Source: Rhizaria sp. SCN 62-66 (Eukaryota). From it: a DNA stretch of 34,427 bases. Location of the stretch: positions 1 to 34,427 of the forward strand of contig MEDY01000447.1 of NCBI GenBank assembly GCA_001724265.1. Direction: 5' to 3'. The translations under genes were made by a program, and so were the position numbers. Position 1 is the stretch's first letter. Each line of letters begins with the position of its first letter. The notes below the pieces were generated by a model. The model had not been told where the DNA came from. It searched no databases and saw only the letters and a program-made list of their open reading frames with translations. Shown here piece by piece: positions 1,221-34,427 of this stretch.

Positions 1221-3977
1221 TTAGTTACTGATGTTGCTTCCACCGTTCTCAGTGTCAAGCTGCACCCAGTTGAGGAACTCCTTGCAGCCAACGAGTCCGT
1301 CACGGTCCGCATCCGCCGAGCGCATGAGACAGCCGGCCTCCACAGCCGCCGGGTCCACTGCCGCACTCACACTCACAGTGACGTTGCTGCCGACTGCAGG
1401 GGTGACCATGAGCAGGAGCGGGTCGCTGCGGTCAAGCGCGGCCGTGAGGGCCTTGCCAATCGGCGCTGTGAGTCCCAGAGCGCGCAGCAGACGCGCCACG
1501 TCGTCCTTCCGCAGCCACCCGCAGCCAGCCGAGTCAAACGCCGCGAACGCTTCAAGCGCGCCGCCGCGCCAGCGTCCCAGCGCCGCGCGCGCGAGACGGT
1601 CCAGCGCGTGCGCCAATAGCAAGCGGGCGGGGGTGCGCACCGAGAGGACCGTTTCGAGCGGAGTGCCCACGGGCGAGGTGCGCGCGCGGAGACGGCACTG
1701 CAGCGCCTGTGCAAAATGCAGAGCGCGCGCGCGCAGAGGCGCGGCGGCGAGAGCACGGACGAGCGAGGCCGTCTCGTCGACAGAGAAGAAGAAACGGTTG
1801 TCCAGGAAGCGCAGCGCATGGGCCGCGGTTGCGCCCTGTTCGCTGCGAGACCACACACCGACGGCTGCGTCGGCCAGCGAGCTAGCAACGACCGCGGTCG
1901 TCGCGCTCGCCGCAGGGGCGACACTGGTGTTGAAGTTGTGGCTCCAGGAGTCGAGAACTGACCCGTCGTCAAGCAGACGCACTGCCAGCGACACGCCCAG
2001 CAACGCGCCGTCATTGCCGCTGTTGTTGCCGATGTTGTTATTAGCGACGGCAGAGGCGAGGGACGCGAGCGAGCCGCTGTGGATTGCGCGGCGCAGACCG
2101 GCCGCTTCGGACAGCGTGAGCGCGACTAGACGCGATGACACGCACACCGCGCTATTGTCGCTCTCGCTACCGCGAGCACTTGCGTTGGGCACGGCGACCG
2201 TGCGGTGAGACGCGGAGAGCGATGCGCGCACAGACGACAACACTGCGGCGACAGAGGCGCGGGTGACGCTGCTCGCACCGGGCGCCGCGCGCGCCTGCAG
2301 CAGAGCAGCCTCAGTGTGCAGACCGGCGGACCGCAGGCTGGCCACGACTTCGCTGAGCGGGGCGCTGTCACAGTCAGCGCTCTTGTTCGCAACGTTCGCC
2401 GTATTGGCGTTGTTCGAGTGAGCGCGGGCGAGCATGGCGAAGACACGCACAAGATCCTCGCTCTCCTCTGTGTCAACATCAACGCATGCGTTGTCCTTTT
2501 CTTCGCTCTTGCTCTCATTCTTACTCTTATCCACCCCCTTGGTAGTCGCGGTGACACGAGAGGGAGCAGTGTTGGCGTGGAGGAGATGCCACTCCGCGAT
2601 GACGTGCACGTTGCGCAAGCGCGGCATCGTCGCACGGTCAAACAGCTGGCGTGGGTCGAAGAAATGGCGACTGTATAGCACAGAAGGCGGCAGCGCAAGC
2701 GGGGCCGCGTCACTGCCAGGCAGCTCAGCCTCGCTTGCACGGTAGAACGGATGCAGGAAATCATCCCGCTCGCTGACGCCATCACTGTTATTGCTGCTGA
2801 CGACAACAGCGGCAGTGGGCTTGGCGTCGGCGGAGCCGTCCTTGGCTTCGTCAGCGCCTGCGTGAGCGACACTGGTGATGGGCGGAGGGCCCACGCTGGT
2901 GAGGGGCGGGGGTCCGCCGCCGCTACTATTGAGAGGCGGAGGGCCACTGGCAGCGAGGTTAAACGTAAACGTGGGCTGCTCGTCATCGTCATCGCTGTTG
3001 TCGGCGACAAATGCGCTGCCAGTCGAAGCCTTGATCGCAGGCGCCGCCGCAGCAGCCTTGTCGGTGACAGCATACTGAGACGCACAGTCCTCAGCGGACG
3101 CAAGAGAGACAATGGTGCCAGCCGCCGGCCCCTCCGGGCGGAACAGCGCAGCCAGCGGCCAGGCCTTGGTCTCAGCGTTGAGCGCGAAAGAGAACTGCAG
3201 CATACTGTGCTGCACGGCCTGCTCCTCGACTTCAACCTCTTGCTCATTGACCATCTCCTGCTCCAGGCGGTCCACCTGCATCTTTCCAGCGCCCGCAGCC
3301 TCTAGCGCGCGCACTGCACGCGCGAAACTGCGCGCCCACTGCCGCGAGACAAGCTCGCGCGCGTTGGCAACAACCATCTTGTGCGCCATTGCACGAACAC
3401 GCGCGTCGACGCTCTCTCCGATCTCATCATCGTTCGGCACTCTCAGCTCGGCGCCGAGACCGATCTTGCCAGCCAGATCGGTGTCCGCGGCGGCGGCCTC
3501 GCGGCGCAGCACGGCCGCCAGCGACAGCGGCTGCGGGACGGCAGTCTCAAGCCCGTGCACGATCGGCTCCTTGAAGAACTGCAGACGCGCGGGCGCGTGT
3601 GACAGCTGCGGTGGCCCGTCCGCAGGCAGCATTGAGCGGACAACGATGCGGCGGACTGACTCGCGTGCGGCGTACTTGCAGTGCTGTACGAATTGCACGC
3701 GCTCAGCGTTGGCGGCGTTGACGAGTGACCACGCCATGACGTCGTTCGGGGTCACGCCCTCAGCACTCGCCACAGCAGTCGTCGACACGCTGGTGCTACG
3801 CTCTTCGCTGCTGGAGGCGTTTGTGGTGGCGAGACGAATCAAACGTGCGAGCTCAGGCACGACGAGTACGACAGCGCGCTGACCGGTGGCGATGCCACGC
3901 ATGCGGTAGGCGCCCTGGGAGTAGTCACGCAGAGTGAGGTCCTTGCCCAGCGTGATCGCAGCGACGGCGTTCGGAGC
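1221..3977 (-). CDS. Gene A terminal exon (918 aa + TAA): helicase motif VI-like QGAYRMRG, EQEMVNEQEVEVEEQ segment, low-complexity linker, EF-hand pair
   Basis: Acceptor CAG 3980-3978, exon in frame with the 893-aa ORF (3977-3902 = 75 nt). Confidence 0.9.
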   Translation of the reverse strand, partial: APNAVAAITLGKDLTLRDYSQGAYRMRGIATGQRAVVLVVPELARLIRLATTNASSSEERSTSVSTTAVASAEGVTPNDVMAWSLVNAANAERVQFVQHCKYAARESVRRIVVRSMLPADGPPQLSHAPARLQFFKEPIVHGLETAVPQPLSLAAVLRREAAAADTDLAGKIGLGAELRVPNDDEIGESVDARVRAMAHKMVVANARELVSRQWARSFARAVRALEAAGAGKMQVDRLEQEMVNEQEVEVEEQAVQHSMLQFSFALNAETKAWPLAALFRPEGPAAGTIVSLASAEDCASQYAVTDKAAAAAPAIKASTGSAFVADNSDDDDEQPTFTFNLAASGPPPLNSSGGGPPPLTSVGPPPITSVAHAGADEAKDGSADAKPTAAVVVSSNNSDGVSERDDFLHPFYRASEAELPGSDAAPLALPPSVLYSRHFFDPRQLFDRATMPRLRNVHVIAEWHLLHANTAPSRVTATTKGVDKSKNESKSEEKDNACVDVDTEESEDLVRVFAMLARAHSNNANTANVANKSADCDSAPLSEVVASLRSAGLHTEAALLQARAAPGASSVTRASVAAVLSSVRASLSASHRTVAVPNASARGSESDNSAVCVSSRLVALTLSEAAGLRRAIHSGSLASLASAVANNNIGNNSGNDGALLGVSLAVRLLDDGSVLDSWSHNFNTSVAPAASATTAVVASSLADAAVGVWSRSEQGATAAHALRFLDNRFFFSVDETASLVRALAAAPLRARALHFAQALQCRLRARTSPVGTPLETVLSVRTPARLLLAHALDRLARAALGRWRGGALEAFAAFDSAGCGWLRKDDVARLLRALGLTAPIGKALTAALDRSDPLLLMVTPAVGSNVTVSVSAAVDPAAVEAGCLMRSADADRDGLVGCKEFLNWVQLDTENGGSNISN

Positions 3978-5585
3978 CTGAGAACGTTAGAAAAAACAAA
4001 GAAAAATAAGATACATGAGAACACGTTTTTGATTTAATATGAAGTTCAAGGAATACTATTTAATTCAACGAATATATGGAGAGTTAGCAAAAGTGAGAGC
4101 GTACCTGGCTGATGTCGATACCAACAGTGTGAACCTGGTCATAGAACGTGAACCGACGCTCCGCAGGCAGACCGCACTGCGCAAGCGGGATCACAGGCCT
4201 GCGGCCGTGGCGGTCCGCGCCACGCAGCATCACACGCGGCGAGTCGTCAGCGCCGATGAAGACGACACCGTCGACGTGTGTGAGGCCGTGTGTGAGAAGG
4301 TAAGCCGCGACCTGCTCGTTAGTTAAGCCGGTGACGAGCGCACCGGTGTCAATCAGCGCATGGAACGCGTCCGCGCCAGTGGCCGTCGCGATACGGCGGA
4401 GCACCGAGGCGACTGTCCAGTCCGCAGGCAGCGCGAGCGTGGAGACAACAGCGGGGTCACATAGTGTCGACACGATCATGCCTTCAGAGCCGCGCTCAAA
4501 GTGGCAGCGGCCGAGCGCCACGGGTAGCATATCCGACGGCGTGCCGGAGAAGCCGATGCAGTGGTCAAACACGGCGCCCGAGCCCAAGTCAAAGCCAGCA
4601 GCGGAGAGGTTAGTTTCCTGGCGCCGCATAACTTCGGGGAACACGTGCCGCAGCAGGTAGTGCTCGACGACAGCGGGTACGCGTGCTAGTAACGCGTGGA
4701 CCGCGGAGAGCTGTGCGGGGTCACCGGGCTGCACACCCGCGAGCGCGAACGGCACGGCTTCGTCGGGCACCGCAGCGAGGGACGGGTAAACGCGGCGGCG
4801 CACAAGGGCGGCGCGAACCCACGAGTCGAATAGCACCGCCGAAGGACGCAGCGAGTCGGGGCCGAGCTCGCGCGCCACATCAGCCTTAAGACGGACGAGA
4901 ACACGGCGGAGGTCAGCGCGGCGGACACCTTGGATGAGGTAGGCCATCGCGGTCAGCCCGGCGAGCACGTCTGGATGCGCGAACTCGGACGACGGCATCG
5001 GCGCGTCTTTACCGGCGTACGGCACGGCCGTGAGAGCACGGGAGCGTGGTTGGTGCGGGTGCGCTGCGAGGTACGCCGGTGAAAGCAGACCGTACGTGAC
5101 GCGGTTCACCTTACCGAGCGAGTGCGGGAGGAAGCTCAGCAGCCAGTCACGCGCGAGGTTCACCAGGGACAGCTGCTCACCGGTCAGAGCGGCCGCCACA
5201 CTCGCGGCGGGCTCGACCGCGGGGGACAGAGAGCGCGACTGGAGATACTCGAGCAGGCTGTCCTGCGACTCATCGCTGCCGTTATCACCGGTGCCGGTGG
5301 TCGCGGACTTATTAGGCGCGACGCGGATGCCGTTGGCACGCAGGAACAGCCGCATCCAGCGCGCGAGCAACGGCAGCAGGCGTGCAGCGTAGAACGAATT
5401 ATCCAGCAGCACCAAGTGCGGGCGACGCAGCAGCGCGCGCGCGGAGAGGCCGTCGGCGAGCGCTGCGATGAGTTCAAACAGCAGCGTCTGGCCGTCAGTG
5501 GTCAGAGCGAGGTGGTTGCCCGCGGCAGTGCCCACAGTGACCGCCGCTGCAGTGCTCTTGCTGCTGTTGTTGTTGCCAGAGTTGC

Positions 5586-5619
<34 letters not shown>

Positions 5620-8600
5620 GCTGTTGTTGTTGTTGTTGTTGCTAGTGCGCTGAAGAGCAGAGGAAAGCGCGTCGACGAGCACGAGCGGGACCTGCCAGCG
5701 CGCGGGCGCAGGCTGGAGCTCGCGCTTAGCACCGACGGGGAAGTTGAGCTCGGACTTGAGAGGATGCAGCAGCACGTCAACTTCGTCCATGACCAGGCGA
5801 CTGCAGCGCAACTGCAGCAGCAGCGTCTGCAGCTGCTTCAGGGCGGCCGCAAGCGTGCGCAGCTGAAGCGCAGTGTACGGGAACCAGCGGCACAACCATT
5901 CGCACTCGGACAACTGCGAGACAGGCGAACCAAGCAGAGTCGAGGCTGTCTTAGCGGCCGCGGCGTCGAGCTGCGCTGTGTCATCAGCGGACATGCCCTG
6001 GTTGAGCATGTGCTGGCGTGCGGCCACAGTCGCGAGATCGCTCATCGCAGCCGTGACTTCGACAGCCTTGAGCAGGACGGACTTAAGTGTGACGTCAGTG
6101 CACACAACAACACCGCCGGCGCGGGAAGATTCGCGCAGTTGCTCCACGAGCTGTTGCAGCACAGGCGAGACGCTCGCGCGCGCGGGGCTGGGCAGCTTGG
6201 CCAGAATGAAATCGGGCGGTGTGGCATTGTTATTGCTGTTAGAGTCAGTGGAAGGCGGAGGGATGATCTTCTCAGCGCGGAGCCGCGTGACAACAAACCC
6301 AAACCGTTGGCCACGGAGCGAGGCGGCGTACTTCGTCATCCACTGCTCGGAGCGGCGCAGCAGCGCTGTGGCAGGCTGGTCTTCGTCGACTGCGCCGAGA
6401 CCCATGATGCCGCCCATGTCACGCTGGAACGAGAACGTGGAGACGGGCACGGAGAAGAGAGCGGTGAAGCGGGAGCGGAGCACAGCGGTGGACATGGGGA
6501 GAAGCGCGGTGGGGACAGCGTTGACAGTGCACGGCAGCAGCTTATCATCGTCGTCCTCCTCCTCTTCCTCCTCGTCGTCGTCATCGTCCTTATCAGAGCT
6601 CTTCTCGGAGCCAGAGTCAAGGTCTGAGAACGAGTCGGAGTCGGATTCCTTGGCGTCAGACCCGTCGTCGTCACTGTTACTGCGGTCACTCATCCGCTCA
6701 GTGCTAGCCTTCTCATCATTGTCGCCATCATCGATATTGTTGTTATCGTCATCATCGCACATCATGCAGTCCTCAGCCTTCTTCGCAGCAGCAACAGCAG
6801 CAGTCGAGTTCGACTTAGCCTCCGCAACAACATCGTTGTCATCATCAGCGTTGTTGTCGTGCTTGAGCGGCTTTGCCTTGATCGTCTTCGCGCGCGTCAT
6901 CACATTCTGCGACGTGAACACCAGCATCACCAGCGGGCCCACCACTGTCGTCTTGCCAGCACCCATGAGCATCTGATGCACCGAATTGCGCAGCGTATGC
7001 AGCCCCGTCTTGCTGTGCAGCTGCTTCCAGCCAGGCAGCACCGGCGCAGCCACGGGGCTCACGCCCGCGCGCGCCTGCACGTCGGCCTGGGTCGCGAGCA
7101 TCGCGCGCACGACACTGTTGCCATCGTACTGATCGCCCGTTGATGTCGGCAGCGTGCGCACTGCGCAGGCGAGCACCACACGCCAGCCGCGGGGCGCGCT
7201 CTCACAGGGCGCGAGCGCGGCCGCACGGTGTGACACTGCAGGCAGCAAACGCGGCGCACTCAGCGCGCTCATCACGCCGGTGCCCGCGCTGTTGCCGCCG
7301 CTGGAGCCTGTGTCGAGACCGACGACGGCGACGGAAGTGGCAGGCGCGGGGCGGTTCACTGCGGGCAGCGCCTTCGCCGGGGCCGCGATGAAAGACCGCA
7401 CGAGCTCAACCTGGCCACGGCGTAGGACGATGTCGAAGCAGTACTCAAACGCCAGGAAACGCGGGTCATACACCACCGTATCGCGGCGCGTCAGGCCTTC
7501 GTGTGCGCCGTTGGCGATCGCAGCGGCGCCCGCGGCCACGGCGGCGGCGTCGGCGCAGGCGGCGTTGGCGTAGAAGCGGCCCGTCGTGAGCAAAGTCGCC
7601 AGAGACTGCGTCTGCTGTGCCAGCGCGAGCAGCGCCGCGGGTGCCAGAAGCGGGCCGTCAGCGGGTGCGCCGGCGGGTGCACCGGCTGCTGCTGTGGCAA
7701 GAGTGCGGGCGCGGAGCACGAGAGCCGGCGGCGCGGGTTGCAGCGAGGCTGGGATGGAGTTGAACACAGCGCTGATGGCACCGTTGCGCGCGAGCGCCTG
7801 TGCGACTGAGCGCGCGGCCTGGAGTGCGCGGTACAGCAGCGCAGTGCGGTTCACCCGTAGCATGTACACGGCGAGCACGGACATCACCTGCGCCGCGCCC
7901 TCAGTGTCGTCGAACCGGCGCGCGAGGGCGGGCAGCAGCATCGCGTTGGGCCCTTCACCCGTGGTGGACATGAGACCTTGGATGAGGTCGTTCACGCGCA
8001 GTGTCGCGCCGCCGAGAGCAAGGCGGCGCAGCTGCTCTTCGCGCTGCTTCTTATCGTCGTACAGCACAAACCGCTGCGCGACAAGCCCGATCATCACGCC
8101 GGTCATATCGCGCACCAGCGACCACACCGCGGCCTCACGTGCGCGCTCACGGGCCGCCGCGGCGCCAGCGCGGACGGCGGCGACCGCGGCGAGGATGCCG
8201 GCGCGGCGGCGCTCGGTGGCCGCGCGTGCCTGGAGCTTAGAGCGCGCGTTGAGCAGAGGGCCGACGAGGTCGAAGCGGCGTGACGCCTCGTGAGTGCGGA
8301 TTTGGGACTCGACGTGCGCGAGACAGCGCAGTGTCTCTGTGAGGCCGCGCGTGCACTTACTCTCCTCAGCACACTGACTGACAGTCGCACTCTTATTCGC
8401 AACAGGAGGAGGAGCGACGTAGCCGGGGAGATCGCGGACATCACCGTCACCGCGGATACTAAGTCCGAGTGCGAGATACGCGTCAACCGCCGCGGGCGTG
8501 CACAGTGGACGCCCGTCGCCACAGTCATCCACGACGTTTTCAGCACTAGCGGCGCGCTCGCACAGACGCGCGGACACACGTGCCCACTCGCGGATCCTCA

Positions 8601-10489: not shown

Positions 10490-10522
<33 letters not shown>

Positions 10523-21466: not shown

Positions 21467-22670
21467 TTTTCGACGCTCATTCCAAGGCACAAACGCGCAT
21501 TTCTGAGCATGAAAATAAGAAAACCATAGACAAAGAAGTGCGTTCTTGGCAAATAGCAAAAGAAACGCTGAGATTGAGCGATTCCAATGTGAAATGTGTC
21601 AGTTAAGGGATACCATTTTGCGGCGCCTCATCGTTAATATTTTTTTTGTGTGGTCAGAAGTGGTCGCTTGCTCACGGTCACTTCTCCTTTCGCCGCATTG
21701 TGACAGACGATTGTGGTGACACCAAGGGACTCATCTTGCGCGCACTCTACGGCTTCGTCATTGGTTGACTTTGGACCAGTATTGGTGGACCTAAATGTGT
21801 TGTAACACCGTTTGAGCTGCAGTGTATAGTTTTGAAAGCGAATAACTCTCAATAACATTTCTCAAACAATCGTTTCCAGAGGCGCGCATATCTGATTCTC
21901 GCTCCAAGATGCGTTTGTGGTGGAGTCACACATCTTCCAGTTCCCGCATGATTATGAAGTCATGACTGCCAAATATGCCATATTCGTGTATTACATGTTG
22001 TTTTTTTAACTTTGGTTTATTGCACTGGCAGCACATGTGTTACCGTCGACATTCTGCATAAAATTCCAGTCGACAGCTTTTGCCGGTCGCGATTTAAAGG
22101 TGGCGTTTCTCGTGTATACACACTTCGTTTTCCTGTGAACACAGACTCTCTTTTTCTATGAAAACNCCACCTTTATATGCCCGCCCCGAAATGGCCGCGG
22201 GTGGTGTTTGCCCCAGTGTGAGCCTGTGAGACTTGGTATTTTATGCTGAATGTCGGCGGTAACAACATGGCGCTAGTTCAGTGAAGAGAGGACTAAATAA
22301 TGTTCTTACTCTTCGTTTGCTTCGCGTGCGCGCCCTTTGGCTCGGTTCAGTTTTTGATCTTTTGGGGAGCTATTCCGTTCGTCAAAGTGTGAAATTGGCA
22401 TTAATTTAAACGCAAATTAGAAAATAACCTGTGTATAAACTGTTGCCGCTGCTGATCAATGCGTATTTGATGTATACTGTAGCACGAAGAATGAAGACAA
22501 GCCCAGCTCAGATATCCATGCTGCCCAAGCTTAGAGAAGTCGCGTCAGACTGACCGTAGATAAGTTGTTCACAACTTACACATTAACAGTGTGATGTGTA
22601 ATCGTAACTCACAACTTATCTCCCTCCTCTCTTCTTGTCTTCGGTTTGTAACCTATGGTAGGATTGAAAT
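21467..22670. promoter_or_regulatory. AT-rich divergent intergenic region, probable shared bidirectional promoter and 5' UTRs
   Basis: About 1.2 kb non-coding, AT-rich segment between two outward-facing start codons, with no credible ORF. Confidence 0.55.
22558..22621. repeat. Nested inverted-repeat element upstream of gene B
   Basis: AGATAAGTTGT (22558-22568) pairs with ACAACTTATCT (22611-22621); TTACACAT (22576-22583) pairs with ATGTGTAA (22594-22601); also palindrome TAAGTTGT-TC-ACAACTTA (22561-22578). Confidence 0.7.
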
Positions 22671-25600: not shown

Positions 25601-28600
25601 CCTGCCCATTCCCGTCGCTGCGCACGCGTCTGAGGAGGCGCGCACGCGCTGCCCCTGGCAGACTCCCATCACACACTCGCTGCAAGCCCGTCTCGTTTAC
25701 GTGCTCGGTGATCTGACGCTGTGGTTCACCGCATGTGCGTCGTTTTCCAAGAACTCGCGCGCACTTGACTACACGCGGCTCGTTGTTGTGGCCGCACTTA
25801 CCACCATGGTGGACTCGCTTATGCGCCGCCGCACAACCGATTTCCAGTCGCCCTTTTCGCTCGCACTGTTTGAGGGCCGCTTTGGCCCCGGTCCCGGTGC
25901 GTTTGCTGAGCAAACTGCAACGGCGATCGGCGCATATCCAGAGCTGCAAGTTGTGCGCTCGCAGGTGATGGCGTATTTTACTGAGATTAGCGTAATGCGC
26001 CAGGTCTTTCTGTTTAACGAGGTCTTCTTCTCATCTGCGGACATGGAGTTTATGAAGGATATCCACCTTCGTTCGAGCCTGCCGACGCAGCGTGAGAATT
26101 TGTCCCAGGGTCTGATGCATAGTGATCGCGATTGCTCTTCGCATGTCATGGACGCGTACCCTGAGTTGCGTCACTATCGCGACGTTTGTTTCTATCTCCG
26201 CTTCCTTCAGGCGAATGTCACTGTTCTCACGGAGGACAATGATTACGCACACGAAGCCATGACCAAGGAAATGCCCAAACCCGTTAAGATGTACTCCCAT
26301 GGCGACGGCATGTTGCGTGCTGATTTTCTGCGCCACCATATGAAGTTTCAAGAAGCCCCCATGCTTCGCTTTCCTCCTGGGGCTTCAGTCCCACTGCTTA
26401 CTGACACACCTTCGATCAACACCGAGGACGACGTGCTGCACGTACCGTCACTGCCCGATTTCGACGGGGCGCTCGGTCAAGCAGACTCTGAGCTCCTGCT
26501 CTCGTACCTCACAGTGCCTTATTTGCGTATTCCTTTGGTGCTGGGCTTTTTTGCCTCCGAGGAGCGCATCAACGCACTCAAATCCTCCAAGCTCTGTGGA
26601 GTGCTTGAGGCAGTGTTGTTTGAACCTGGCCGCTTTTTGCCGATCCCCGCTGTCAAGAGCGTGACCGTGCAGCGCACGCTTCCCAACGGCTCGCTTTCGC
26701 GCTACCATGACAGTGCGACTGACGATACGAAAGTCGGCGATGCGTTGGCGGCGACTGCGACCGCGGCGCAACAGGAAGCGGCAGCTCTCGCTGGGGAGAC
26801 GTTAGTGCCGGTCGCTGACCCGGCCACACTGGCTACGCGCTACGGCCTTTTGCTCAACGAGCTTATTCATGCGCCCGGCAACGTGCTGTCCTCGGCTGTG
26901 ACGATGGTGGAGCTGGCGCTTGCGCTGGATATCGGCACGGTGCAGTCGTCCTCAGTGTCAATCCTGCTTTTTGTGTTCCGCATGGCGGCACGCGTCGAGA
27001 ACTACGCTGCATTTGCACTACGCCAAGCTGAGGCTTCGTCTGCACGCTCCAACGGCACGGCTGACTCGGTTAATTCAGAATCTGCACACTCAGAGTGTGA
27101 TGACGCGGCGCCGATGTCGCCGGCGCACGTCCTGGCGCTTGCAGACGGTCTCAAGAAGCTCCGGCGCCTGCTCTGGGGCCGTGTTGCGTCCGCGCTGGCA
27201 AAGTGGGGCGCTGAGCTGTGGCAGATTATCCGCAGTGTGAAGGATAACGACTCTGGCGACGGTGATGATAATATGGATGAAGGGAATGACTCCGACGAAG
27301 ATGATCCTTCGAAGCCCATCTCCTTGTATCGTTCTTCCTCCTCGTATTCATATGAGTTGGAGTACTTTGAATTCAGGAGTTCGCTCTCGCGTGATCGTCT
27401 TACGTATGATCTGGCCTCCAAGGCTTCGGTTCAGATGACGGGCTCTGACAAGCGCGCGAGAGAGCTCGCTGAGGACCAAAAGGCACTTAAGAAGCTGAGT
27501 TCCGACGCCGCCACTCGCCTTCTCTGTGATTTGCACGCTCATACGATTGTGCTTTTCCGCAACGTCGATACGAACGTTCTGCTTTATAATCCTGCCTATG
27601 GCGCTTCTCTCGTGACTGGCATGCTGTTCCTCACGACGCGTCACTCGTTCGGCAAGGACACACTGCAGATCACCGAACACCTTGTGTTTGAAGCAATGCA
27701 CACAGTGCGTCGGTCGCTCGTCACTTGGCTACGCAAACTCACCGCCACCGCGCTGAGCCTCGTCATGGAGGCGACGATCCGCGTCGTCACGTGCGAGGGC
27801 GTGCTTGACATGCGGCTCGTCGCCCCCGCAGACTCTGCTGAAGACGTGGTCTCGCCCGTCGCACCGAGAGCCAGCGCTGCCCCTGCGCCCGCGGTCCTCA
27901 CCTCCGGCACACTGCTTACGGCGCCGTCGTTTTTGCGCCGGACTTCAAGTCTGAAGCACTCCGGTGCCGAGGTTGATCCGAGTCAAGTTGCATTCGAAGT
28001 CTTGACGCGCATGCTCGGCCCTGCTCCCGGTGAGACACCTCGCCGTGTGTGGCGCTATATCCCGGGCCCCGCGTGCACGGGCCTTTTCGTCTCGGTTGAC
28101 TTGGCGCCCGGTATGACGGCAGAAGAACCCGTTGACGGCGTAGGCGCAGGCAATGCGCTGTGGGCCGCTGCCAAGCAAGGCATGAAGATTGACACACAGT
28201 CGTGGCAGCTTACGCTCAAGGGCTCGCAGCTGCAGGTGTTACCTCAATCAGTCATGAACCGAACAGACGTAGCTATTACCTGCGGCACTCGCGCGATGCA
28301 AGCCGCGCTTGTTGACTCCGCTAAGAACCGCAAGGTTTTCCTGCTCGTCGGCCGCAGCTATGAGCTCAGCCACTGGTCACCGCCCAACGTCGGCGAGTTC
28401 TTCGAAGCTGAACGGCTTTACGACGCGAACGATTTACACCCGCACGAGCGTTGGGTTGCCGAGCTGCTCGAACCCGTGCGTCTGGCCTTCTTCGAGATGC
28501 CGCCGCCGCCGCTAATGATTTTTATGCCAACGGAGGCCCTCGCCAAGAACGCCAGTGTCGCCTATCTTGTCGGAATGCATCCCGAGCGTCACGGTGCCTG

Positions 28601-31600
28601 GAAGGAGTTTGTGGTGTACAAACACCGGCGCATGGTCGAGATCTACACTGTGATCTCACATGGGCGTCGCTTTTACCGTACGCTGTCGTACACCACGCAC
28701 ACACAATTCTCACTGCGTGCTTTGACCAGCGATTCGTCCGACCGCAACTTGCCGTGGGCGGACTGGGAACGCTACGCCGCAGGCTCACCTGACGCAGAGA
28801 TGCGCTCAGACTCGGTGATCATTGCGCGTAGGCCCGAAAACGTTGAAAACCTCTCGCGGACGCAGGAGATGTTCCTCCCGGCCCGTTTCCTCGAGGGTAT
28901 GCTACCCGAGGGCCTGGTGCGTCAGTACCTCTTCTGGCAGGACGACAACGACAACATTCGCGGTTACCCCGTCGAGGTTAGTAACCACACCGTCTTGTTT
29001 ATCGAGATGTTGCGCGTGTCTCGCTGCGACGCGTTCGAGGAAGCCGGTGTCAGTGTGCGCGTTACGCGCATGCCGCGTACGCTGATGGCACAGCGCGCTG
29101 GCTTCGCCGCGGGCGCTGGTGTTGCTCAGACGACAGCGTATTCAGCGTCCATCAGCAGTATTGCGCTTGAGGATGAAGAGTTGGAGCTTGTGAATCTCTT
29201 GCACGCACCTAAGTACTCGCAGCTTTTCCAGATTGCGTCTGTACTGAGCCGCATTGAAGGCCTTTCCAATGTCTTGGCTTGGAAGCGCGTCAGCGCAGCA
29301 CCTTCGCTCGCAGGTGCCCGTCACTTGCCGTTGCACACTGTTGCATCTGACGACACTGCTGCCTCCAAGCCTGTCTCACAGCTGAAACTCGCGAAGACAG
29401 CGGAGCAGCTGGCTGTGCAGGCCTCGAAGGAAGTCGTGGCTCAACAGCTGCTGGATCTCCCACTGATCGAGCTTCCCAACCTCAAGATGTCATTCCACAC
29501 GCGCGTTGTTGACGGCGAGTGCCGGCTGTACTCGCTCGACCACTCCGACCTGTATGTGTCCAACGCACGCAGTGAAGATCTGGCGCGGATTTCTGCTGGT
29601 ATCCCCCACAGCCTGATCATGTCCAACGACAATGGTGAGCTGTCGATGCTCGTGCCGTGTGTCAATGTTGCCAGGCCGACGATCGCGTCTGCGCCGCTTT
29701 CAACAGAGCTTGTGTTGGAGCGTAACAACTTGTACTGGCTGGAGATGATGGAGACCCGCTATTTCCTCTACCCGATTCACGTCTCGCTGTCGTTCGTCTT
29801 CACGCCGACGCTCGCATCCGCGCTGTACCTCATGCTGCTGCGCCTGTTGCACCGCGACTACGCCGAAGTTTTCCGCCTTGCAGACACTATCGGCTCCGAC
29901 ACTGAACTGTCAGGCGAAGAGCGTCAGATCTTCGAGGCGCTGAGTGAAGCTAACACAGACGTTCACGCCGACGCCTGTGCGTGCCGGCTCAAGATTGCGT
30001 TGGCACTTATGGACTCAACTGATGTCCAACTGCCTTGGTTGCATACCCTGACGTACTGTCTGTACGCACAACGCATTGCGGCGCTCTCGGCCTCGTGCCG
30101 TCTGTCGTTCCACGATGAGATTGCTGTGGCGCGCCTGGCGCTTCCTCAGGCGCTGTGCGGTAAGATCCGTCGCTTCTCGCGCCCCTCGCGCGCTTACCGC
30201 CTTCCAACCTGGGCGCCCATGTTGGTGATGGCGTACAACCGTCTGCAGTATCTCGAAGCTATGGTCTACGGCCGTTCTGCCTTCCGGACGCTCACCGTGC
30301 CGCCGCCGGACTCGGCGAGCTTCTACACTGCCGACATCGGCACCCTGGAAGAGATGCTGGTTGGAATGGGCCACAAAGAGCTGCTGTCAGCGGAGGCGCT
30401 TGCGCTGGTGCGCCCGCGTCAAGTGCGCGTGTTCTCACGTCCCGTGAAGCAAGTGTATGCGTCGCCGCGTAACACTATGGGTGTTGACGTCCTCGCGATC
30501 GCGTCGCGCTATCTTGCACACTCTGAGAAGCCGCATAACCTTGGTCCCGGTGCGCTGGGCTTCATGTACATCTACCAACTGCTGCAGTCTGACATCCGCG
30601 TCAAGATCGCCGGTCAAGACTGTGCGTCAACCTTCGGTCTGTTTGCGCTGTCGATGATGCCTCTGCGCAAGATGAGCAAGTTGCTTGTGATTCTGCGTCT
30701 CATGGCGCAGCGGCCCGATATCGCAGCCGTGCTGCCCCGCTGGTCGGTCTTCAAGAAGTCACTGCATTCATCCGACACTGGTGACGCCATCCACGACCGC
30801 AACAGCAAGGCTGTCCCACTCGAAGGCTTCAACGCCTTTGTCACTGATATAATCACCGCTATTGCGCAGCTCTACAAGATCAACCCGATCCTCACAGCGG
30901 CTCCCTATGGCACGTCACCTGCGACCATTCACCGAGAGCTCGCGCTCGCTGTTGTCCCCCGCCCTGCGCAGACTGGTCTTTGTGCCGCGGTTCCGATGCG
31001 CGCATGGATCATCCCGCAGCTCTCCGACTACGACTGTGACGTGCGCTACCTTTTTGCTGCTCCTTCCGGGCTGTCTCACGCCGATGCTGCAAACAGCTCG
31101 GATGCTGCGCTTGAGCGCCGTGTCAAGCTGCAGATGGCTGCGACGGGCGCGGGCGCGGGCACCGCGTCCAGTGCTTTGCGCCGTGCGCTGCGCTTATGGG
31201 AGGCGGCGAAGAAGAAGGGACAGCGTCACTTGGCCGATGAGAGTTGGACGTCGCTTGCATCTGAGGCCGCGCGCGGTCTGAGCTCGCTCGTCTCGACGAT
31301 CCTTGGCGATCTCAGTGTCTCTGATGAAGTCGCACTGCGTGCGCCAACTGAAACGAGTGGGCCCGTGGGCGGAGAGCTGCCGATTAACGTGCGCGCGCAC
31401 CCCGGTGTCCAGTCTGGTGTTGCGCTCGCCATGCAGACGCGTATGGAGAAGGACACTGTGCTTTTCAGCACATCTTACAACTCCTCTAAGGATACGTTCA
31501 TCAAGGGACTGACTGATGCTGACGTCCGCGCGATGATTGGCTCTGGCAGCAGCACGGAATCTACTGCTACAAAATGCACTCTTGACGGCCTTAAGGCGAA

Positions 31601-34427
31601 CCTCACATCGTTGATCCGCCGTCTGACTTCAGCAAAGGCCGACGATGAGCGCGTTGTCAAGTTTGCTTTTTACGTTATCAAGCACTTGTCCCGCCAGCAG
31701 GTCAGTCTCGAAAAGTCCGGCGATGTGTTCGCAGAGCGTCTGTTTGGGCGCGACGCCGGCATCCTGCAGGCTGTGTCCTCACTGCAGAGTCACGAAGCGC
31801 TGGCGATTTCGCGTCACATGAGCCACTGGCTCGCAGTTATCTCCGGTCATGAGCCCGAGCTGAAGCTTGAGTACGTCATCGGTGCACTGCTTTCCTCGCG
31901 TGCGGTGTTTGACTTGCGCAAAATCAACCCGTTCCTCCCTGATGATGTTATTAACGTCATGATGGCTTTCACGGAGGCTGCGCTTCTGCGCGCCAATCGC
32001 ATTGGCCACATCAACCGCACCCTCGGCGAGGCACGCGACTTGCTGAAGCTTCTCGATTCTGTATCCAAGGTTGCTGGGAACACAACTGCTCCTGTTGCGC
32101 CTGGATCGTCGACCTCTCACTCCGCGCTTATTGCAGGCGTGATCCAGAAGAGCAAGGCTCTCGGCACGCAGCTCACTGCGGCGCGTTTCTACTGCGACAC
32201 GACCACTGCTGAGGCCGTGGCCGCAGTTGAGGGCGCAGATGCGGTTGCGGAGGTTTGCACAGCGGACAAGTGCGGCTCGTGGCTTTTCGCGGCGCAGGTA
32301 CCTGAGGAACATCTTAAGTACACGGAGTCTGTCAATGTCGCCGCCGCTGAAGATGCTGCGCTTGCACGCGAGGCCGCGGTTGCGAAGTGGGAGGCTGACC
32401 CAGCCAACGCGGGCAAGGACAACCTCACCAAGGCGCGCTGCTGCGTACTTGAGGCCCGCGTGCTGCGCCGACTGTTCAAGCACGGTATGCGCGGTGACAG
32501 CATTCCTGTGCACCGTGGTCCGCTTGAAAAGCTTGCTGATGAAGGCATGTACGGCGTCTCGCGCCCTGCCAAGGCCGGTGTGATGTTGCCTGTCTCCGGC
32601 AGTACGGCGCCGGCTGGCACTGCGCTAGTGCGATACGACCCACGCTTCCTTGTGTTCTAGTTCACGTGGAACATCATGTTGCGCAAGAGTCAGGTTGCGA
32701 TGGTGCGTGACTTTGCGGAGAACATCCGCTCTGGCAAGTCGATCGTCAAGCAGATGATCATGGGTGCGGGTAAGACCACTGTCGTCGCACCGCTGCTCAC
32801 GCTCATGTTCGGCGACGGCAAGTCCCTTGTCATGGAGGTCGTGCCGCCCGCGCTGCTTGAGTTCTCGCGCTCGATCATGCGCTCGACGTTCTCGACCGTC
32901 ATGTACAAGCGCGTGTCGACGTTCCACTTTGACCGCGCATCGATTCCGCACCCGTCGATGCTCACCAAGCTGCGCGCCGCCGTCGCCGCCCGCGGCGTCG
33001 TCATCTCGACCCCCACCTCGGTCAAGTCCGTCATGCTTAAACTGCTCGAGACGCAGCAGCAGCTCAAAGACCTCACTCTCCCGCGCACGCGCGAGCTAGA
33101 GCACGAGCGCGACGTGCTTGTGGCGTTGCTCCGTGAGTTCCAGAAGGGCGTGCTGCTCATGGACGAGGTCGATATGATTCTTCACCCGCTCAAGTCCGAG
33201 CTCAACTTCCCCATCGGCGCTAAGCACGAGCTTGACTTCGACCCCCTGCGCTGGCGTCTCGCTATGCACGTGCTGGACGCGGTGTATTATCACGCCACAC
33301 CCGTCGTGCCGGCCGACTTCCGCGACTCCAAGGCCGCCGTGGCGCTGCTGGAGCAGATCTCGGCCGCCGTGCGCGTCGGTCTGTCGGAGCGCCACATGCA
33401 GTCGTCGCCGCACGTCGTGCTGCTCAACGCAGACTTCTACTACGCGACGCTGCTGCCGCTCATGTGTGACTGGGTGATGCTGTGGGTTGAGGCACAGCAC
33501 CTCACGGGCATCACCTCCGCGCAACTGCGTGAGTACTTGCTTACTTCCGGTGTGCATAACGCCGAGCTCACGGCTGCGGTTGAGACGGGAGTGACGCCGC
33601 ACTTTCGCAAGATGATGAACCTCGCGCGCGACTGGCTGCGGTCGTATCTCCCGCACGTGCTGCAGAAGATCGACCGCGTCGGCTTCGGTCTGCTGTCCAA
33701 GGAGGACTACGAGCGCGCCGTCCGGAACGACCCCAACATCCCCGAGACGCGCGCCAAGCTCGCCATTCCGTTCCTCGGCAAGGACGTGCCCTCGGAGACG
33801 TCCGAGTTCGCGCACCCCGACGTCATCATCGGTTTGACCTACATGGCGTACCGCTACGAAGGTCTCCGCTACACCGATTTCTGCGAGGTGATTGACAGTC
33901 TGCACTCGTCGCTCGGCAAGGAGCTCGGCCCGTACATCAAGCGTCCCACCGTGGCGCGCTACGCGCGCTGGGTGCGCGAGGCCGGCGGTGTTATCCGCGG
34001 TGAGGCTTCCGCCCCCGCGCCGTCCGCCGTCCAGCAGGGCCTCGCCGCACTGCAGGAGAGCAAAGAACAGGGCGAGGACGAGGAAGATGAGAATCTGGTT
34101 GTTGACAAACGCGTTGAGGTGATGCCGCTTCGACTGCTGAAGCGGTCCAACGTCGACCACATGCAAGCTCTTTTCAACGTCCTGGTTTATGAGCCTCTGG
34201 TGATCCAGTGGTACTTGAATGATTTCGTCTTCCCGGCCCACCTGCGCCACCAGAAGGTCAAGCTCTCTGCCTCCGGTGTCGAGATCGGTGGCGACATGCT
34301 CTTCTCGCGCCGCGTCGGTTTCTCCGGTACGCCGTCCGACCTGCTCCCGCTGGAGCTCGGCCAGTGCGACTACGAGAAGGGCACCGACGGTATGATGGTG
34401 CACGTGCTCACCTCGCCCGACATGGTT
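22671..34427 (+). CDS. Gene B (exons 22671-22750 and 22871 to beyond window; one in-frame TAG at 32658-32660): giant DUF3638/DUF3645-family paralogue of gene A with LamG/ConA-like N-terminal domain and degenerate protease module; 3'-partial
   Basis: Exon 1 MSDPSASADVDAVGEIPQSSMIFSPG joins in phase 2 to the 3251-aa ORF frame. The same frame continues past the TAG for 589 codons to the window end with QMIMGAGKTT, MDEVD, AIPFLGKDVPSETSEFAHPDV and GFSGTP. 3,289 aa if TAG terminates, at least 3,879 aa if it is read through. Confidence 0.85.
22751..22870 (+). other. Spliceosomal intron, 120 nt, phase 2
   Basis: AAG|GTACGC donor (same hexamer as the gene A intron at 4104), T-rich body, CTGAC branch-like site, AATCAG|G acceptor. 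Restores frame (AG+G = Arg). Confidence 0.85.
23400..24060 (+). other. LamG/concanavalin-A-like beta-sandwich domain (putative) in gene B
   Basis: Alternating beta-strand pattern ALSLEPGAYVHL ... TVIVLEI ... PGEWTRVVIV ... LSTYINGALA resembles the W-x-H/R-V ... LYxNG signature. Contains a Gly-rich insert at ~23781-23823. Confidence 0.55.
32661..34427 (+). CDS. In-frame continuation of gene B: DUF3638 ATPase core and DUF3645 motif (absent from the ORF track, presumably because it runs off the window)
   Basis: Manual translation FTWNIMLRKSQVAMVRDFAENIRSGKSIVKQMIMGAGKTTVVAPLL; Walker A 32760-32780; Walker B MDEVD 33159-33173; HPLKSELNFP identical to gene A. Confidence 0.9.

What the first reader, a model, noticed from the sequence alone, without database searches (positions are those of the whole stretch)
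1221..34427. Head-to-head pair of giant protease-ATPase paralogues: candidate paired enzyme/pseudoenzyme system
Seen: two divergently transcribed genes ~1.2 kb apart are collinear over thousands of residues (A/B: LLSALSEPYARIPLIL/LLSYLTVPYLRIPLVL; GLLTNEVLHAP/GLLLNELIHAP; RLYSRDHANLYVS/RLYSLDHSDLYVS; FYLYPVHTS/YFLYPIHVS; LRLLHRCYAEAF/LRLLHRDYAEVF; HPLKSELNFP in both). They are highly diverged between motifs, so the duplication looks old, and they carry different N-terminal modules (Cys-rich vs LamG-like). Known: DUF3638/DUF3645 proteins are functionally uncharacterised, and head-to-head sensor/executor pairs occur among plant NLRs (RPS4/RRS1, RGA4/RGA5). Inference: a co-regulated heteromeric machine coupling an SF2-like ATPase, Ca2+ sensing and ubiquitin/Ubl-like proteolysis, possibly in defence or quality control.
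Basis: partly seen in the sequence, partly recalled or inferred. Interest (0 to 1): 0.85.

Follow-up and report, generated by a model that had tools for sequence, protein, structure and literature searches.

The report
Divergent pair of giant ATPase paralogues
Two neighbouring, oppositely oriented genes of an uncultured wastewater protist encode very old paralogues of an unstudied family of giant motor proteins; one keeps a protease-like active site, the other has lost it and carries a premature stop, but nothing yet shows that they work as a pair.

Summary
Gene A (minus strand, 3 exons, 6,586 aa) and gene B (plus strand, at least 3,879 aa, runs off the window) start about 1.43 kb apart and are collinear over their whole shared length. 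Both are DUF3638/DUF3645 giant proteins: a variable N-terminal module, a cysteine-protease-like head, a long scaffold and an SF2-type ATPase. A also has an EF-hand-like tail.

The scan has met this uncharacterised family before on other DNA (13 earlier notes).

New here:
- The A/B split is ancient. A groups with Thecamonas AMSG_03687, and an AU test rejects a local duplication.
- A keeps the head's His-Asn-Gln-Cys set. B has Leu-Asn-Pro-Ser, as do most members of its widespread clade.
- B has an in-frame TAG at a nearly invariant Glu just before its ATPase. DNA contigs of two studies show it.
- Head-to-head linkage was seen in 0 of 21 informative B-type loci from other protists.

Both ATPase cores look intact, so only B's head is a pseudoenzyme. 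A co-regulated heteromer is untested and unsupported. The protease label is also unproven: the closest solved fold, Legionella LegA15/AnkD, was reported to be a GTPase.

Verdict: new members of a known, unstudied family; moderate interest.

The parts
1221..3977 (-). Gene A exon 3 (918 codons plus TAA stop at 1221-1223): helicase motif VI QGAYRMRGI (3891-3917), low-complexity tail, EF-hand-like pair
1263..1553 (-). A C-terminal EF-hand-like pair. One canonical loop, DADRDGLVGCKE, at 1278-1313.
   Evidence: Pfam EF-hand_7 E 5.7e-4, 20.6 bits, below the cut-off of 30; loop read; coordinates
3978..4104 (-). A intron 2 (127 nt, GT-AG, AT-rich, ctaac upstream of the acceptor)
   Evidence: the join restores the family-conserved spacing around DISQ|APNAV
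4105..19077 (-). Gene A exon 2 (4,991 codons): second half of the head, the scaffold with the shared motifs, and the ATPase with long low-complexity inserts
4534..7467 (-). A ATPase first lobe: DPRFLAFE (7444-7467), Walker A MGAGKTTV (6943-6966), Walker B DEVD..HPLKSELNFP (5737-5790), GFSGTPS (4534-4554). Includes Pfam DUF3638 and DUF3645.
   Evidence: Pfam 42.6 bits (cut-off 31) and 41.7 bits (cut-off 25); coordinates
19078..19208 (-). A intron 1 (131 nt, GT-AG, AT-rich), inside the head domain
   Evidence: the join ...SDDHQ|VEMLY... aligns without a gap to P0006
19209..21239 (-). Gene A exon 1 (677 codons) from ATG 21237-21239
   Evidence: N-terminal length matches P0006
20928..21104 (-). 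A-type Cys-rich module (CPNCKYCEFPGC...C..C), probably metal-binding
   Evidence: 29 invariant columns of 75 against P0127; also in P0006; no Pfam hit
18823..19661 (-). A head domain (residues 527-762, split by intron 1). Putative catalytic set: His564 (19548-19550), Asn623 (19371-19373), Gln713 (18970-18972), Cys718 (18955-18957). Invariant His631 at 19347-19349.
   Evidence: fold from the model of the orthologue P0006
21240..22670 (.). Shared 5' spacer between the two start codons (1,431 bp, GC about 0.47-0.49)
22038..22264 (.). MITE-like insertion in the spacer: 31-nt terminal inverted repeats, ACATG on both flanks. High-copy, absent from one contig of run X2. Holds the N at 22166.
22671..22750 (+). 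Gene B exon 1 (predicted; ATG at 22671)
   Evidence: similar to the N-terminus of P0011; no RNA contig covers it
22751..22870 (+). B intron (predicted, 120 nt, GT-AG)
   Evidence: the join ...SPGR|AYDG... matches P0011 ...APEREYDA...
22871..34427 (+). Gene B exon 2, open at the window's end. The orthologue P0011 has 5,227 aa, so about 1,300 codons are missing.
23787..23942 (+). Weak ConA/LamG-like match inside B's N-terminal module
   Evidence: Pfam Laminin_G_3 E 0.032, 14.8 bits against a cut-off of 27.6; in L037 the equivalent module also matches the Pfam-recognised Laminin_G_3 region of P0012
24429..25109 (+). B head domain (residues 547-773). It keeps Asn621 and His631. The positions of the catalytic His, Gln and Cys hold Leu, Pro and Ser.
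32658..32660 (+). In-frame TAG at the Glu of the DPRFLxFE motif, 34 codons before B's Walker A
   Evidence: present without differences in DNA contigs of X1 and X2; the 3,231-aa product ending here was called on 4 contigs
32670..33839 (+). B DUF3638 (32670-33296) and DUF3645 (33744-33839). Walker A at 32760-32783, Walker B/HPLKSELNFP at 33159-33212, GFSGTPS at 34317-34337.
   Evidence: Pfam 97.6 bits (cut-off 31) and 56.1 bits (cut-off 25); coordinates; fold

Best explanation
A and B are two anciently diverged members of the uncharacterised DUF3638/DUF3645 family of giant eukaryotic proteins. In this uncultured wastewater protist they happen to lie head to head.

Shown, for each protein: a variable N-terminal module (Cys-rich in A, ConA/LamG-like in B); a roughly 230-residue head with the fold of the Legionella AnkD/LegA15/AnkH 'cysteine-protease-like' domain; several thousand residues of conserved scaffold; and an SF2-type two-lobe ATPase. 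A also has an EF-hand-like tail.

Inferred: A is a complete enzyme. Its ATP motor works on a bound macromolecule while the head's His564-Asn623-Gln713-Cys718 site carries out a thiol-dependent hydrolysis. Most likely this removes a ubiquitin-like modifier or cuts a peptide, and Ca2+ probably modulates it through the tail.

B belongs to a widespread clade whose head lost the nucleophile long ago but kept the fold and the motor. It therefore acts as a motor or scaffold whose head can at most bind.

In this lineage B also carries a nonsense codon just before the motor. It is therefore a freshly disabled copy, or a copy truncated to 3,289 residues.

The two genes most likely act independently. Their adjacency is specific to this lineage and is not a conserved operon-like pair.
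For: - Family membership: Pfam DUF3638 and DUF3645 score above the curated cut-offs in both genes.
- Collinearity: BLASTP E 2e-46. Of 315 family-conserved columns, A keeps 267 and B keeps 293.
- Ancient split: A, P0006, P0007 and Thecamonas AMSG_03687 form a clade with SH-aLRT 100. B and P0011 sit inside another clade with Eutreptiella and Diplonema sequences. Holding A's and B's groups together costs 257.6 lnL units, p-AU 3.5e-69.
- Head sites: A-type rows are H-N-H-Q-C-C in 4 of 4. Clade II has the Cys in 0 of 8 rows and clade III in 1 of 11 rows with a residue there.
- Co-variation across 185 head rows: with the Cys, the first His is present in 51 of 54 rows and the Gln in 54 of 56. Without the Cys, the His is present in 19 of 99 rows.
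- Head fold: the AF2 model of P0006 has pLDDT 90.2 and pTM 0.86. AnkD 7ew8 gives Z 11.3, rmsd 3.2 over 186 residues; LegA15 gives Z 10.9-11.1; AnkH gives Z 9.0. All other rows reach Z 7.8 at most and cover only a helical hairpin.
- Site placement: His43, Asn83 and Cys178 of the model sit where the AnkH paper places its triad (PMC6712400, passages read).
- ATPase: all 50 listed VIA rows are SF2 or SecA first lobes, Z 7.2-8.8.
- TAG: it replaces a Glu kept in 25 of 26 sequences and at 90% or more in a 99-row alignment. P0011 has Glu there. DNA contigs of X1 and X2, from two studies, cover it with no difference.
- No recoding: 1 TAG against 524 GAG/GAA codons, and no in-frame TAA or TGA, in 10,465 codons.
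- No conserved linkage: 0 of 80 related loci, and 0 of the 21 with at least 4 kb upstream, have a family match on the opposite strand.
Against: - No catalytic activity of any family member has been measured.
- For the nearest solved folds, AnkH showed no protease activity in vitro (PMC6712400). The equivalent site of LegA15 was reported to hydrolyse GTP (PMC9757750).
- Classical clan CE peptidases (Ulp1, SENP, XopD) were not among the listed fold matches.
- The head model is of the orthologue P0006, not of A itself.
- B may not be dead. Downstream of the TAG the frame stays open for 589 codons. 20 of 23 listed strain variants there are synonymous. A polyA metatranscriptome run has contigs on B at 24740-25105 and 31065-31402 and some depth beyond the TAG.
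- Two members of a small family lying next to each other by chance is unlikely in itself.
- All 21 informative loci are distant B-type relatives (34-47% identity). The closest one (L001, 71%) has only about 70 nt upstream, and no A-type locus could be fetched. Linkage in near relatives is therefore untested.
- The tree is a quick LG+G4 search with compositionally odd long rows.
Confidence: 0.6

Rival explanations
1. A and B are co-regulated from the shared 1.4-kb spacer and assemble into one machine. B's dead head and scaffold serve as sensor, adaptor or activator for A's live head, as in other enzyme/pseudoenzyme paralogue pairs.
For: - Divergent orientation with start codons 1,431 bp apart.
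- Live versus degenerate head sites.
- Both loci are represented in one polyA RNA run.
- A-type and dead-head types also co-occur in Thecamonas.
Against: - 0 of 21 informative B-type loci have a divergent family neighbour.
- The Thecamonas genes are on different contigs.
- Dead heads are clade-wide, and those proteins keep their own intact motors.
- B has a premature stop.
- No binding test was run, and contig depth cannot show co-expression.
Confidence: 0.12
2. B is still made full-length. The TAG would be bypassed by readthrough or by a suppressor tRNA, or a second, intact allele exists that contigs do not show. The pair would then be two working genes.
For: - 20 of 23 listed variants downstream of the TAG are synonymous.
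- There are no further stops in the next 589 codons.
- The RNA run has depth downstream of the TAG.
- TAG stands where Glu is expected, and some protist codes read TAG as Glu (NCBI tables 30 and 31, recalled).
Against: - TAG is used once against 524 standard Glu codons, with no in-frame TAA or TGA. A ends on TAA.
- GAG to TAG is a single transversion.
- No variant at 32658 was listed in any of 4 runs, although contigs drop rare variants.
- No protein spanning the site at over 64% identity was found.
- No full-length near-identical B was found among proteins of 1,804-5,740 aa.
Confidence: 0.2
3. The head is not a peptidase. Its His-Asn-Gln-Cys site hydrolyses a nucleotide, as reported for LegA15, or transfers an acyl group. 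Alternatively it is only a binding module in all clades.
For: - LegA15/AnkD is the best fold match, Z 10.9-11.3.
- It has the same Gln-x4-Cys spacing. It binds GTP and loses GTPase activity in C361S and Q356A mutants (PMC9757750, passages read).
- AnkH showed no protease activity in vitro.
Against: - His and Asn co-vary with the Cys in this family. In LegA15, H268A had little effect on the GTPase, so His would not be expected to be retained for that chemistry.
- The LegA15 residues named for GTP binding (R291, K367, R408) were not mapped onto the model here.
Confidence: 0.25
4. A is a recent, fast-evolving local duplicate of B. Its place in the tree would be a long-branch artefact.
For: - The two genes are adjacent.
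- A's rows have unusual composition and long low-complexity inserts.
Against: - The AU test rejects the joint clade, p 3.5e-69.
- A shares H-N-Q-C and the C+4 Cys with Thecamonas P0042 and with P0127, while B's clade lacks them. A duplicate of B would have had to regain three catalytic residues.
- The Cys-rich N-module is shared with P0006 and P0127 but not with B.
Confidence: 0.02

Closest known systems
Pfam DUF3638 (PF12340) / DUF3645 (PF12359) giant proteins, such as Thecamonas trahens AMSG_03687 and AMSG_00592, Saprolegnia SPRG_20090 and Hondaea FCC1311_030302. UniRef labels many of them 'ubiquitinyl hydrolase 1'.
   Same: Both Pfam domains score above cut-off. Same order of head, scaffold motifs, ATPase and EF-hand tail. 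A is nearest to AMSG_03687, with the identical H-N-H-Q-C-C head pattern.
   Different: - A is unusually long (6,586 aa) because of low-complexity inserts.
- Here two clades sit head to head.
- B has a nonsense codon.
- The family has no experimentally known function. The 2025 Tetrahymena paper says its mechanism is undefined (PMC12615304, passage read).
Cysteine-protease-like domains of the Legionella effectors AnkD/LegA15 (PDB 7ew8, 7kj6, 7xql) and AnkH (6mca)
   Same: Best and only clear fold matches: Z 11.3, 11.1, 10.9 and 9.0 over 175-192 residues. Same order His, Asn/Asp, Gln, Cys, with Gln five residues before Cys.
   Different: - Only 10-12% sequence identity, and no sequence-level match to any PDB chain.
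- The Legionella proteins are about 450 residues long, with ankyrin repeats and no motor.
- Their chemistry is disputed: a protease fold with no activity shown, against a reported GTPase.
SF2 helicase/translocase and SecA-type RecA-like motors
   Same: Walker A GAGKT, DEVD box, GFSGTPS and QGxxRMRG motifs. The model of B's first lobe matches DinG, reverse gyrase, Snf2, UvsW, RIG-I and SecA at Z 7.2-8.8 over about 135-150 residues.
   Different: - No subfamily stands out.
- Foldseek E-values are all 0.011 or above.
- The lobes hold long family-specific inserts.
- No nucleic-acid-binding domain was found.
Head-to-head paired NLR genes of plants (RGA4/RGA5, RPS4/RRS1; recalled, not checked in a call)
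   Same: Divergent orientation of two paralogues with different N-terminal modules.
   Different: - No NB-ARC, TIR or LRR domain.
- Linkage is not conserved in the loci that could be tested.
- No evidence for a defence role.

Membership tests
DUF3638/DUF3645 giant proteins | Pfam PF12340 and PF12359 above gathering score | tested here: met
   A: 42.6 bits (cut-off 31) and 41.7 bits (cut-off 25). B: 97.6 bits (cut-off 31) and 56.1 bits (cut-off 25)..
DUF3638/DUF3645 giant proteins | Family-conserved columns along the whole length (head N/H/W/Y, LLSYLTVPYLRIPL, DPRFLxFE, GAGKT, DEVD..HPLKSELNFP, GFSGTPS) | tested here: met
   A keeps 267 and B keeps 293 of 315 columns conserved in the 24 other sequences. 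B's one loss in the key motifs is the TAG at the Glu of DPRFLxFE.
Clan CE-like / AnkH-type cysteine-protease-like domain | Catalytic residues in the order His, Asp/Asn, (Gln), Cys | tested here: met
   For A: His564, Asn623, Gln713, Cys718. In the model of the orthologue P0006, His lies at the start of strand 42-51, Asn follows strand 76-82 and Cys lies at the start of helix 178-193, as described for AnkH.
Clan CE-like / AnkH-type cysteine-protease-like domain | The same catalytic residues in B | tested here: not met
   B and its orthologue P0011 have Leu, Asn, Pro and Ser at the four sites. B keeps the fold's invariant His631, Trp and Tyr.
Clan CE-like / AnkH-type cysteine-protease-like domain | Fold similarity to solved members | tested here: inconclusive
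   Clear for AnkD/LegA15 and AnkH (Z 9.0-11.3). Ulp1, SENP and XopD were not among the listed rows, which does not exclude them.
Clan CE-like / AnkH-type cysteine-protease-like domain | Thiol-dependent peptidase or isopeptidase activity | not testable with these tools
   Needs an enzyme assay. None was found in print for this family.
SF2-type ATPase | Walker A, Walker B (DExD) and arginine-finger motif VI on two RecA-like lobes | tested here: met
   A has all three: MGAGKTTV, DEVD and QGAYRMRGI. B has Walker A and B; its second lobe lies beyond the window. All 50 listed VIA rows are SF2 or SecA lobes, Z 7.2-8.8.
EF-hand Ca2+-binding proteins | Pfam EF-hand match above cut-off with canonical 12-residue loops | tested here: inconclusive
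   A: EF-hand_7 scores 20.6 bits against a cut-off of 30. One loop is canonical and one is degenerate. B's tail is off the window. P0011 and P0012 carry EF-hand families.
ConA/LamG-like domain (B N-terminus) | Pfam Laminin_G_3 above cut-off | tested here: inconclusive
   14.8 bits against a cut-off of 27.6, E 0.032. In L037 the equivalent N-terminal module matches the Laminin_G_3 region of P0012 at E 7e-8.
Paired sensor/executor gene pairs (NLR-like) | Head-to-head linkage conserved across relatives | tested here: not met
   0 of 21 B-type loci with at least 4 kb upstream (about 17 non-redundant) have a family match on the opposite strand. Near relatives and A-type loci could not be tested.
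Paired sensor/executor gene pairs (NLR-like) | NB-ARC/LRR or comparable immune-receptor domains | tested here: not met
   No such Pfam family at E up to 0.01 in any of the five translated pieces.

The most novel reading that the evidence does not exclude
The pair is a working module. A is a Ca2+-tuned, ATP-driven thiol hydrolase. It is guided or gated by B, a paralogue that has been reduced in steps to a non-catalytic partner: first by loss of the head's nucleophile, and in this lineage also by a stop codon that removes its motor. Both would be transcribed from one bidirectional spacer. This would be the first enzyme/pseudoenzyme pair in the DUF3638 family and a route to its function.
Probability: 0.1. 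Interest if true: 0.75.

Novelty: new member of a known kind. Interest (0 to 1): 0.4.

Why it matters
DUF3638/DUF3645 proteins are among the largest proteins of many protists, fungi, giant viruses and chlamydiae, and no function is known for them.

This locus gives a clear contrast within the family. One old clade (A-type, including a named Thecamonas gene) keeps a co-varying His-Asn-Gln-Cys site on a fold shared with Legionella AnkD/AnkH. Two other large clades have lost that site but keep the motor. This tells an experimenter which members to assay for catalysis and which to treat as non-catalytic.

If the head-to-head arrangement proved to be functional, it would also point to a partner. 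On present evidence it is a local arrangement, and one of the two genes is interrupted.

Tried and rejected
- **VTD deubiquitinases:** I recalled a link between DUF3638 and viral-tegument-like deubiquitinases. The paper (PMC9741609) has none of the terms searched, so I dropped it.
- **Head, sequence-level searches:** A Pfam scan of 16 head sequences at E up to 1 gave no meaningful family and no DUF6606. A PDB profile search of the head gave 0 hits, and phmmer of B's ATPase gave 0 hits.
- **Own genome:** none is held for this window.
- **Locus searches:**
  - Head alignment: no usable conserved stretch.
  - B's N-terminus as a single protein in metagenome contigs: 76 pattern matches, 0 relatives.
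  - Nine-sequence motif alignment: no usable stretch.
  - A's Cys-rich module in prokaryote genome contigs: 3 ten-residue chance matches in Clostridia MAGs.
- **Cluster look-up:** gave no accessions or neighbours.
- **Search across the TAG with X at the stop:** the best hit has 64% identity, so no fragment of the same organism was found and nothing was learned about other alleles.
- **L037:** it first looked like a tandem pair. The upstream hit is the gene's own LamG-like module.
- **A 9-nt GT..AG stretch around the TAG:** rejected as an intron, because it is too short and would remove the conserved Val-Phe-Glu.
- **Introns in RNA:** RNA contigs did not bridge any predicted intron. Parts of B have no RNA contig cover. 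This is not evidence of silence.
- **Tree:** the first run, with the mixture model, did not finish.
- **Organism:** its lineage was not determined.


Full report
**What is in the window**

The window has two GC-rich blocks (GC 0.57-0.71). AT-richer stretches lie at 1-1000 and 21001-23000 (GC 0.45-0.49).

Stop-to-stop ORFs show three long frames on the minus strand: 1221..3986, 4084..19077 and 19056..21296. On the plus strand there are two adjacent pieces of one frame, 22818..32660 and 32661..34427, the second open at the window's end.

Gene A:
- The minus-strand frames are joined by two AT-rich GT-AG introns, 19078-19208 (131 nt) and 3978-4104 (127 nt).
- Spliced, gene A runs from ATG 21239 to a TAA at 1221-1223. 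It encodes 6,586 residues.
- Both joins restore the spacing of residues that are conserved across the family.

Gene B:
- It starts most likely at ATG 22671, with an 80-nt first exon and an intron at 22751-22870.
- The peptide across that join (..MIFSPGR|AYDG..) matches the uninterrupted N-terminus of the orthologue P0011 (..LLFAPEREYDA..).
- B has at least 3,879 codons in the window. P0011 has 5,227 residues, so about a quarter of B lies beyond the window.

No RNA contig bridged any of the three introns. The introns therefore rest on sequence signals and homology.

- BLASTP of the two large exons gives 28% identity over 651 columns (E 2e-46), plus further collinear segments.
- In a MAFFT alignment of A, B and 24 homologues, conserved columns are shared from A277/B475 to the end of the window.
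- Of 315 columns conserved in the 24 other sequences, A keeps 267 and B keeps 293.
- Both genes match Pfam DUF3638 and DUF3645 above the curated cut-offs.
- The start codons are 1,431 bp apart. Of this, 227 bp is an inserted repeat (see the last section).

**The family**

B's central region found 33 proteins. Among them are entries from Eutreptiella, Diplonema, Thecamonas, Saprolegnia, Thraustotheca, Hondaea and Chromera. UniRef labels several of them 'ubiquitinyl hydrolase 1'. A's central region found only 4 proteins.

Full-text searches:
- 'DUF3638' found 6 papers and 'DUF3645' found 2. I read passages of three of the DUF3638 papers. None characterises the protein, and the 2025 Tetrahymena paper says its mechanism remains undefined.
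- 'DUF6606' found none.

Earlier notes of this scan describe the same family on other DNA (13 notes). They supplied the leads 'His-Asn-Gln-Cys head', 'Legionella effector fold' and 'SecA/helicase-like motor', which I tested here independently.

**The split between A and B is ancient**

I built a maximum-likelihood tree from 26 rows and 2,215 columns (LG+G4, quick search). It has three main clades:
- A with P0006, P0007 and Thecamonas AMSG_03687 (SH-aLRT 100).
- B with P0011, inside a clade that holds the Eutreptiella and Diplonema sequences.
- Thecamonas AMSG_00592 with the oomycete and labyrinthulid sequences.

Forcing A's and B's groups into one clade costs 257.6 log-likelihood units (p-AU 3.5e-69). 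The group was named after I had seen the tree, and long, compositionally odd rows are present.

A first run with the mixture model did not finish.

Two independent characters agree with the tree:
- The Cys-rich N-terminal module of A is shared with P0006 and P0127, not with B.
- The head's catalytic pattern, described next.

**The head domain**

A region of about 230 residues (A 527-762, B 547-773) is conserved in all clades, with invariant Asn, His, Trp and Tyr. It matches no Pfam family and no PDB sequence.

A profile search of 1.84 billion representative proteins found:
- 2,619 proteins at E up to 0.001;
- 1,059 proteins at E up to 1e-10;
- 203 proteins at E up to 1e-30.

In 185 aligned head rows, four positions behave as one unit:

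| Rows | First His present | Gln present |
|---|---|---|
| With the Cys (58 of 170 filled rows) | 51 of 54 | 54 of 56 |
| Without the Cys | 19 of 99 | 60 of the 112 rows without the Cys |

The pattern across the sites is as follows:
- A, P0006, P0127 and Thecamonas P0042 all read H-N-H-Q-C-C (4 of 4 A-type rows; P0007 has no head in its gene model).
- B and P0011 read L-N-H-P-S-L.
- The Cys is present in 0 of 8 rows of the third clade.
- The Cys is present in 1 of the 11 B-clade rows that have a residue at that position.

Structure:
- I made an AlphaFold2 model of the P0006 head with a 67-row alignment. It stands in for A's own head, which an intron splits.
- The model has pLDDT 90.2 and pTM 0.86.
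- Foldseek's best rows are Legionella LegA15/AnkD and AnkH (probability 0.82-0.96, E 0.016 or above).
- VIA-align gives AnkD 7ew8 Z 11.3 (rmsd 3.2, 186 residues), LegA15 Z 11.1 and 10.9, and AnkH Z 9.0.
- Every other row reaches Z 7.8 at most and covers only a terminal helical hairpin.

In the model, the His opens strand 42-51, the Asn follows strand 76-82, and the Cys opens helix 178-193, with the Gln five residues before it. The AnkH paper describes this same layout for its His-Asp-Cys triad and for clan CE peptidases such as XopD, with the motifs rGHa, D/NRg and GNC (PMC6712400, passages read).

Caution on function:
- AnkH showed no protease activity in vitro.
- A second paper reports that the equivalent LegA15 site (H268, N290, Q356, C361) binds and hydrolyses GTP. 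C361S and Q356A abolish the activity, and H268A has little effect (PMC9757750, passages read).
- 'Protease' is therefore the likeliest chemistry for A's head, not a demonstrated one.

**The motor and the other modules**

ATPase:
- Both proteins have GAGKT, DEVD followed by HPLKSELNFP, and GFSGTPS.
- A also has QGAYRMRGI in exon 3. B's second lobe is off the window.
- A model of B's 589 residues after the TAG is confident over residues 1-340 (mean pLDDT 69.4 overall).
- All 50 listed VIA rows are first lobes of SF2 helicases or translocases, or of SecA (Z 7.2-8.8, about 135-150 residues).
- Foldseek agrees only weakly (E 0.011 or above). No subfamily stands out.

EF-hand:
- A's tail has a sub-threshold EF-hand pair (20.6 bits against 30) with one canonical loop.
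- Homologues of B carry EF-hand families.

B's N-terminal module:
- It matches Laminin_G_3 only weakly (E 0.032).
- In locus L037 the equivalent module also matches the recognised Laminin_G_3 region of P0012.

**The stop codon in B**

Codon 3290 of B is TAG (32658-32660). It lies 34 codons before the Walker A motif, at the Glu of DPRFLxFE.
- That Glu is present in 25 of 26 aligned sequences.
- It is at least 90% conserved in a separate 99-row alignment.
- P0011 has Glu there.

The TAG is not an assembly slip:
- DNA contigs of run X1 (29813-32753) and of run X2 (31788-32753, another study) cover it without a difference. X1 may be the window's own source.
- The 3,231-residue product that ends at it was called on 4 contigs.

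It is not a sign of a variant code. There are 524 GAG/GAA codons against this one TAG, no in-frame TAA or TGA in 10,465 codons, and A ends on TAA.

The inactivation, if it is one, is recent or incomplete:
- The next 589 codons are open.
- 20 of 23 listed variants downstream are synonymous, as are 10 of 12 upstream. Seven further variants were not shown.
- The polyA metatranscriptome run X6 has contigs on A (six pieces) and on B (24740-25105 and 31065-31402), with some depth after the TAG.
- That library may hold DNA, and contig depth cannot rank genes.
- A search with X at the stop found nothing closer than 64% identity, so it said nothing about other alleles.

**Is the pairing conserved?**

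A scan of JGI metagenome contigs with the LLSYLTVPYLRIPL region returned 80 loci, all of B-type.
- None has a family match on the opposite strand at E up to 1e-6.
- In 21 loci (about 17 non-redundant) at least 4 kb lies upstream of the estimated gene start. That is enough to reach the head of a divergent neighbour arranged as in this window.
- At E up to 0.01 these 21 loci show only same-strand matches, which belong to the gene itself.

Limits of this test:
- These relatives are distant (34-47% identity over the query).
- The closest locus (L001, 71%) has about 70 nt upstream.
- No A-type locus could be fetched.

In Thecamonas the A-type gene and another family member are on contigs of different length (557,936 and 680,870 nt). 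There the types co-occur without linkage.

**Reading**

Shown:
- Two ancient paralogues of a catalogued but unstudied family lie head to head.
- A has an intact, co-varying His-Asn-Gln-Cys site on an AnkD/AnkH-like fold, plus a complete SF2-type motor.
- B has a degenerate head typical of its clade, an intact first motor lobe and a nonsense codon in front of it.

Inferred:
- A is an ATP-driven thiol hydrolase acting on a protein or modifier substrate, possibly tuned by Ca2+.
- B-type proteins are non-catalytic motors or scaffolds.
- This B is newly disabled or truncated.
- The genes act independently.

The heteromer, co-regulation, defence and NLR parts have no support so far, and I give them about 0.1.

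**Other things seen**

- The spacer holds a 227-bp MITE-like element (22038-22264). It has 31-nt inverted ends and ACATG on both flanks. Its depth is about a hundred times that of the flanks in three DNA runs, and it is missing from one X2 contig that joins 22032 to 22265.
- Rfam found no RNA family in the window.

Noticed in passing
window 22038-22264: MITE-like element in the spacer between the two genes. It is 227 bp long, with 31-nt terminal inverted repeats (90% complementary) and ACATG on both flanks. Its depth is about 100 times that of the flanks in runs X1, X2 and X4. It is absent from one X2 contig that joins 22032 to 22265. It holds the window's only N (22166). This looks like a recently mobile, polymorphic insertion in a putative bidirectional promoter region.
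   Followed up: partly
window 5566-5640 (A residues 5157-5181), and the acidic or Ala/Ser-rich runs elsewhere in exon 2: Gene A is inflated by long low-complexity inserts, including an Asn/Ser run and a roughly 130-residue Asp/Glu/Ser-rich insert inside the first ATPase lobe, between Walker A and the next conserved block. B and most homologues lack them.
   Followed up: no
window 23776-23810 (B, Gly run GGVGGGGGGAGG): A GC-rich simple repeat attracts contigs of other organisms in all four runs (depth peak in bin 23766-24432, many loose ends and false joints). Depth there says nothing about B.
   Followed up: no
window 32753 and 32888-34328: DNA contigs of X1 and X2 both end at 32753. Beyond it many third-position variants appear in contigs at least 95% alike. 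So at least two closely related strains or species carrying this gene co-occur in the bioreactor and wastewater samples. Whether the other one has the TAG is unknown.
   Followed up: partly
P0029, P0028, P0039, P0032 (third clade; head rows): Four of eight members of the oomycete/labyrinthulid/Thecamonas AMSG_00592 clade have Ser at the position of the catalytic Cys. Thecamonas P0029 also keeps His, Asn and Gln (H-N-H-Q-S-C). This might be a Ser-nucleophile variant rather than a dead site.
   Followed up: no
L037 119-661: The N-terminal module of a B-type gene from another metagenome matches both the N-terminal region (190-359) and the C-terminal Laminin_G_3 region (4180-4271) of P0012. Some B-type proteins therefore carry two copies of the ConA/LamG-like module.
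   Followed up: partly
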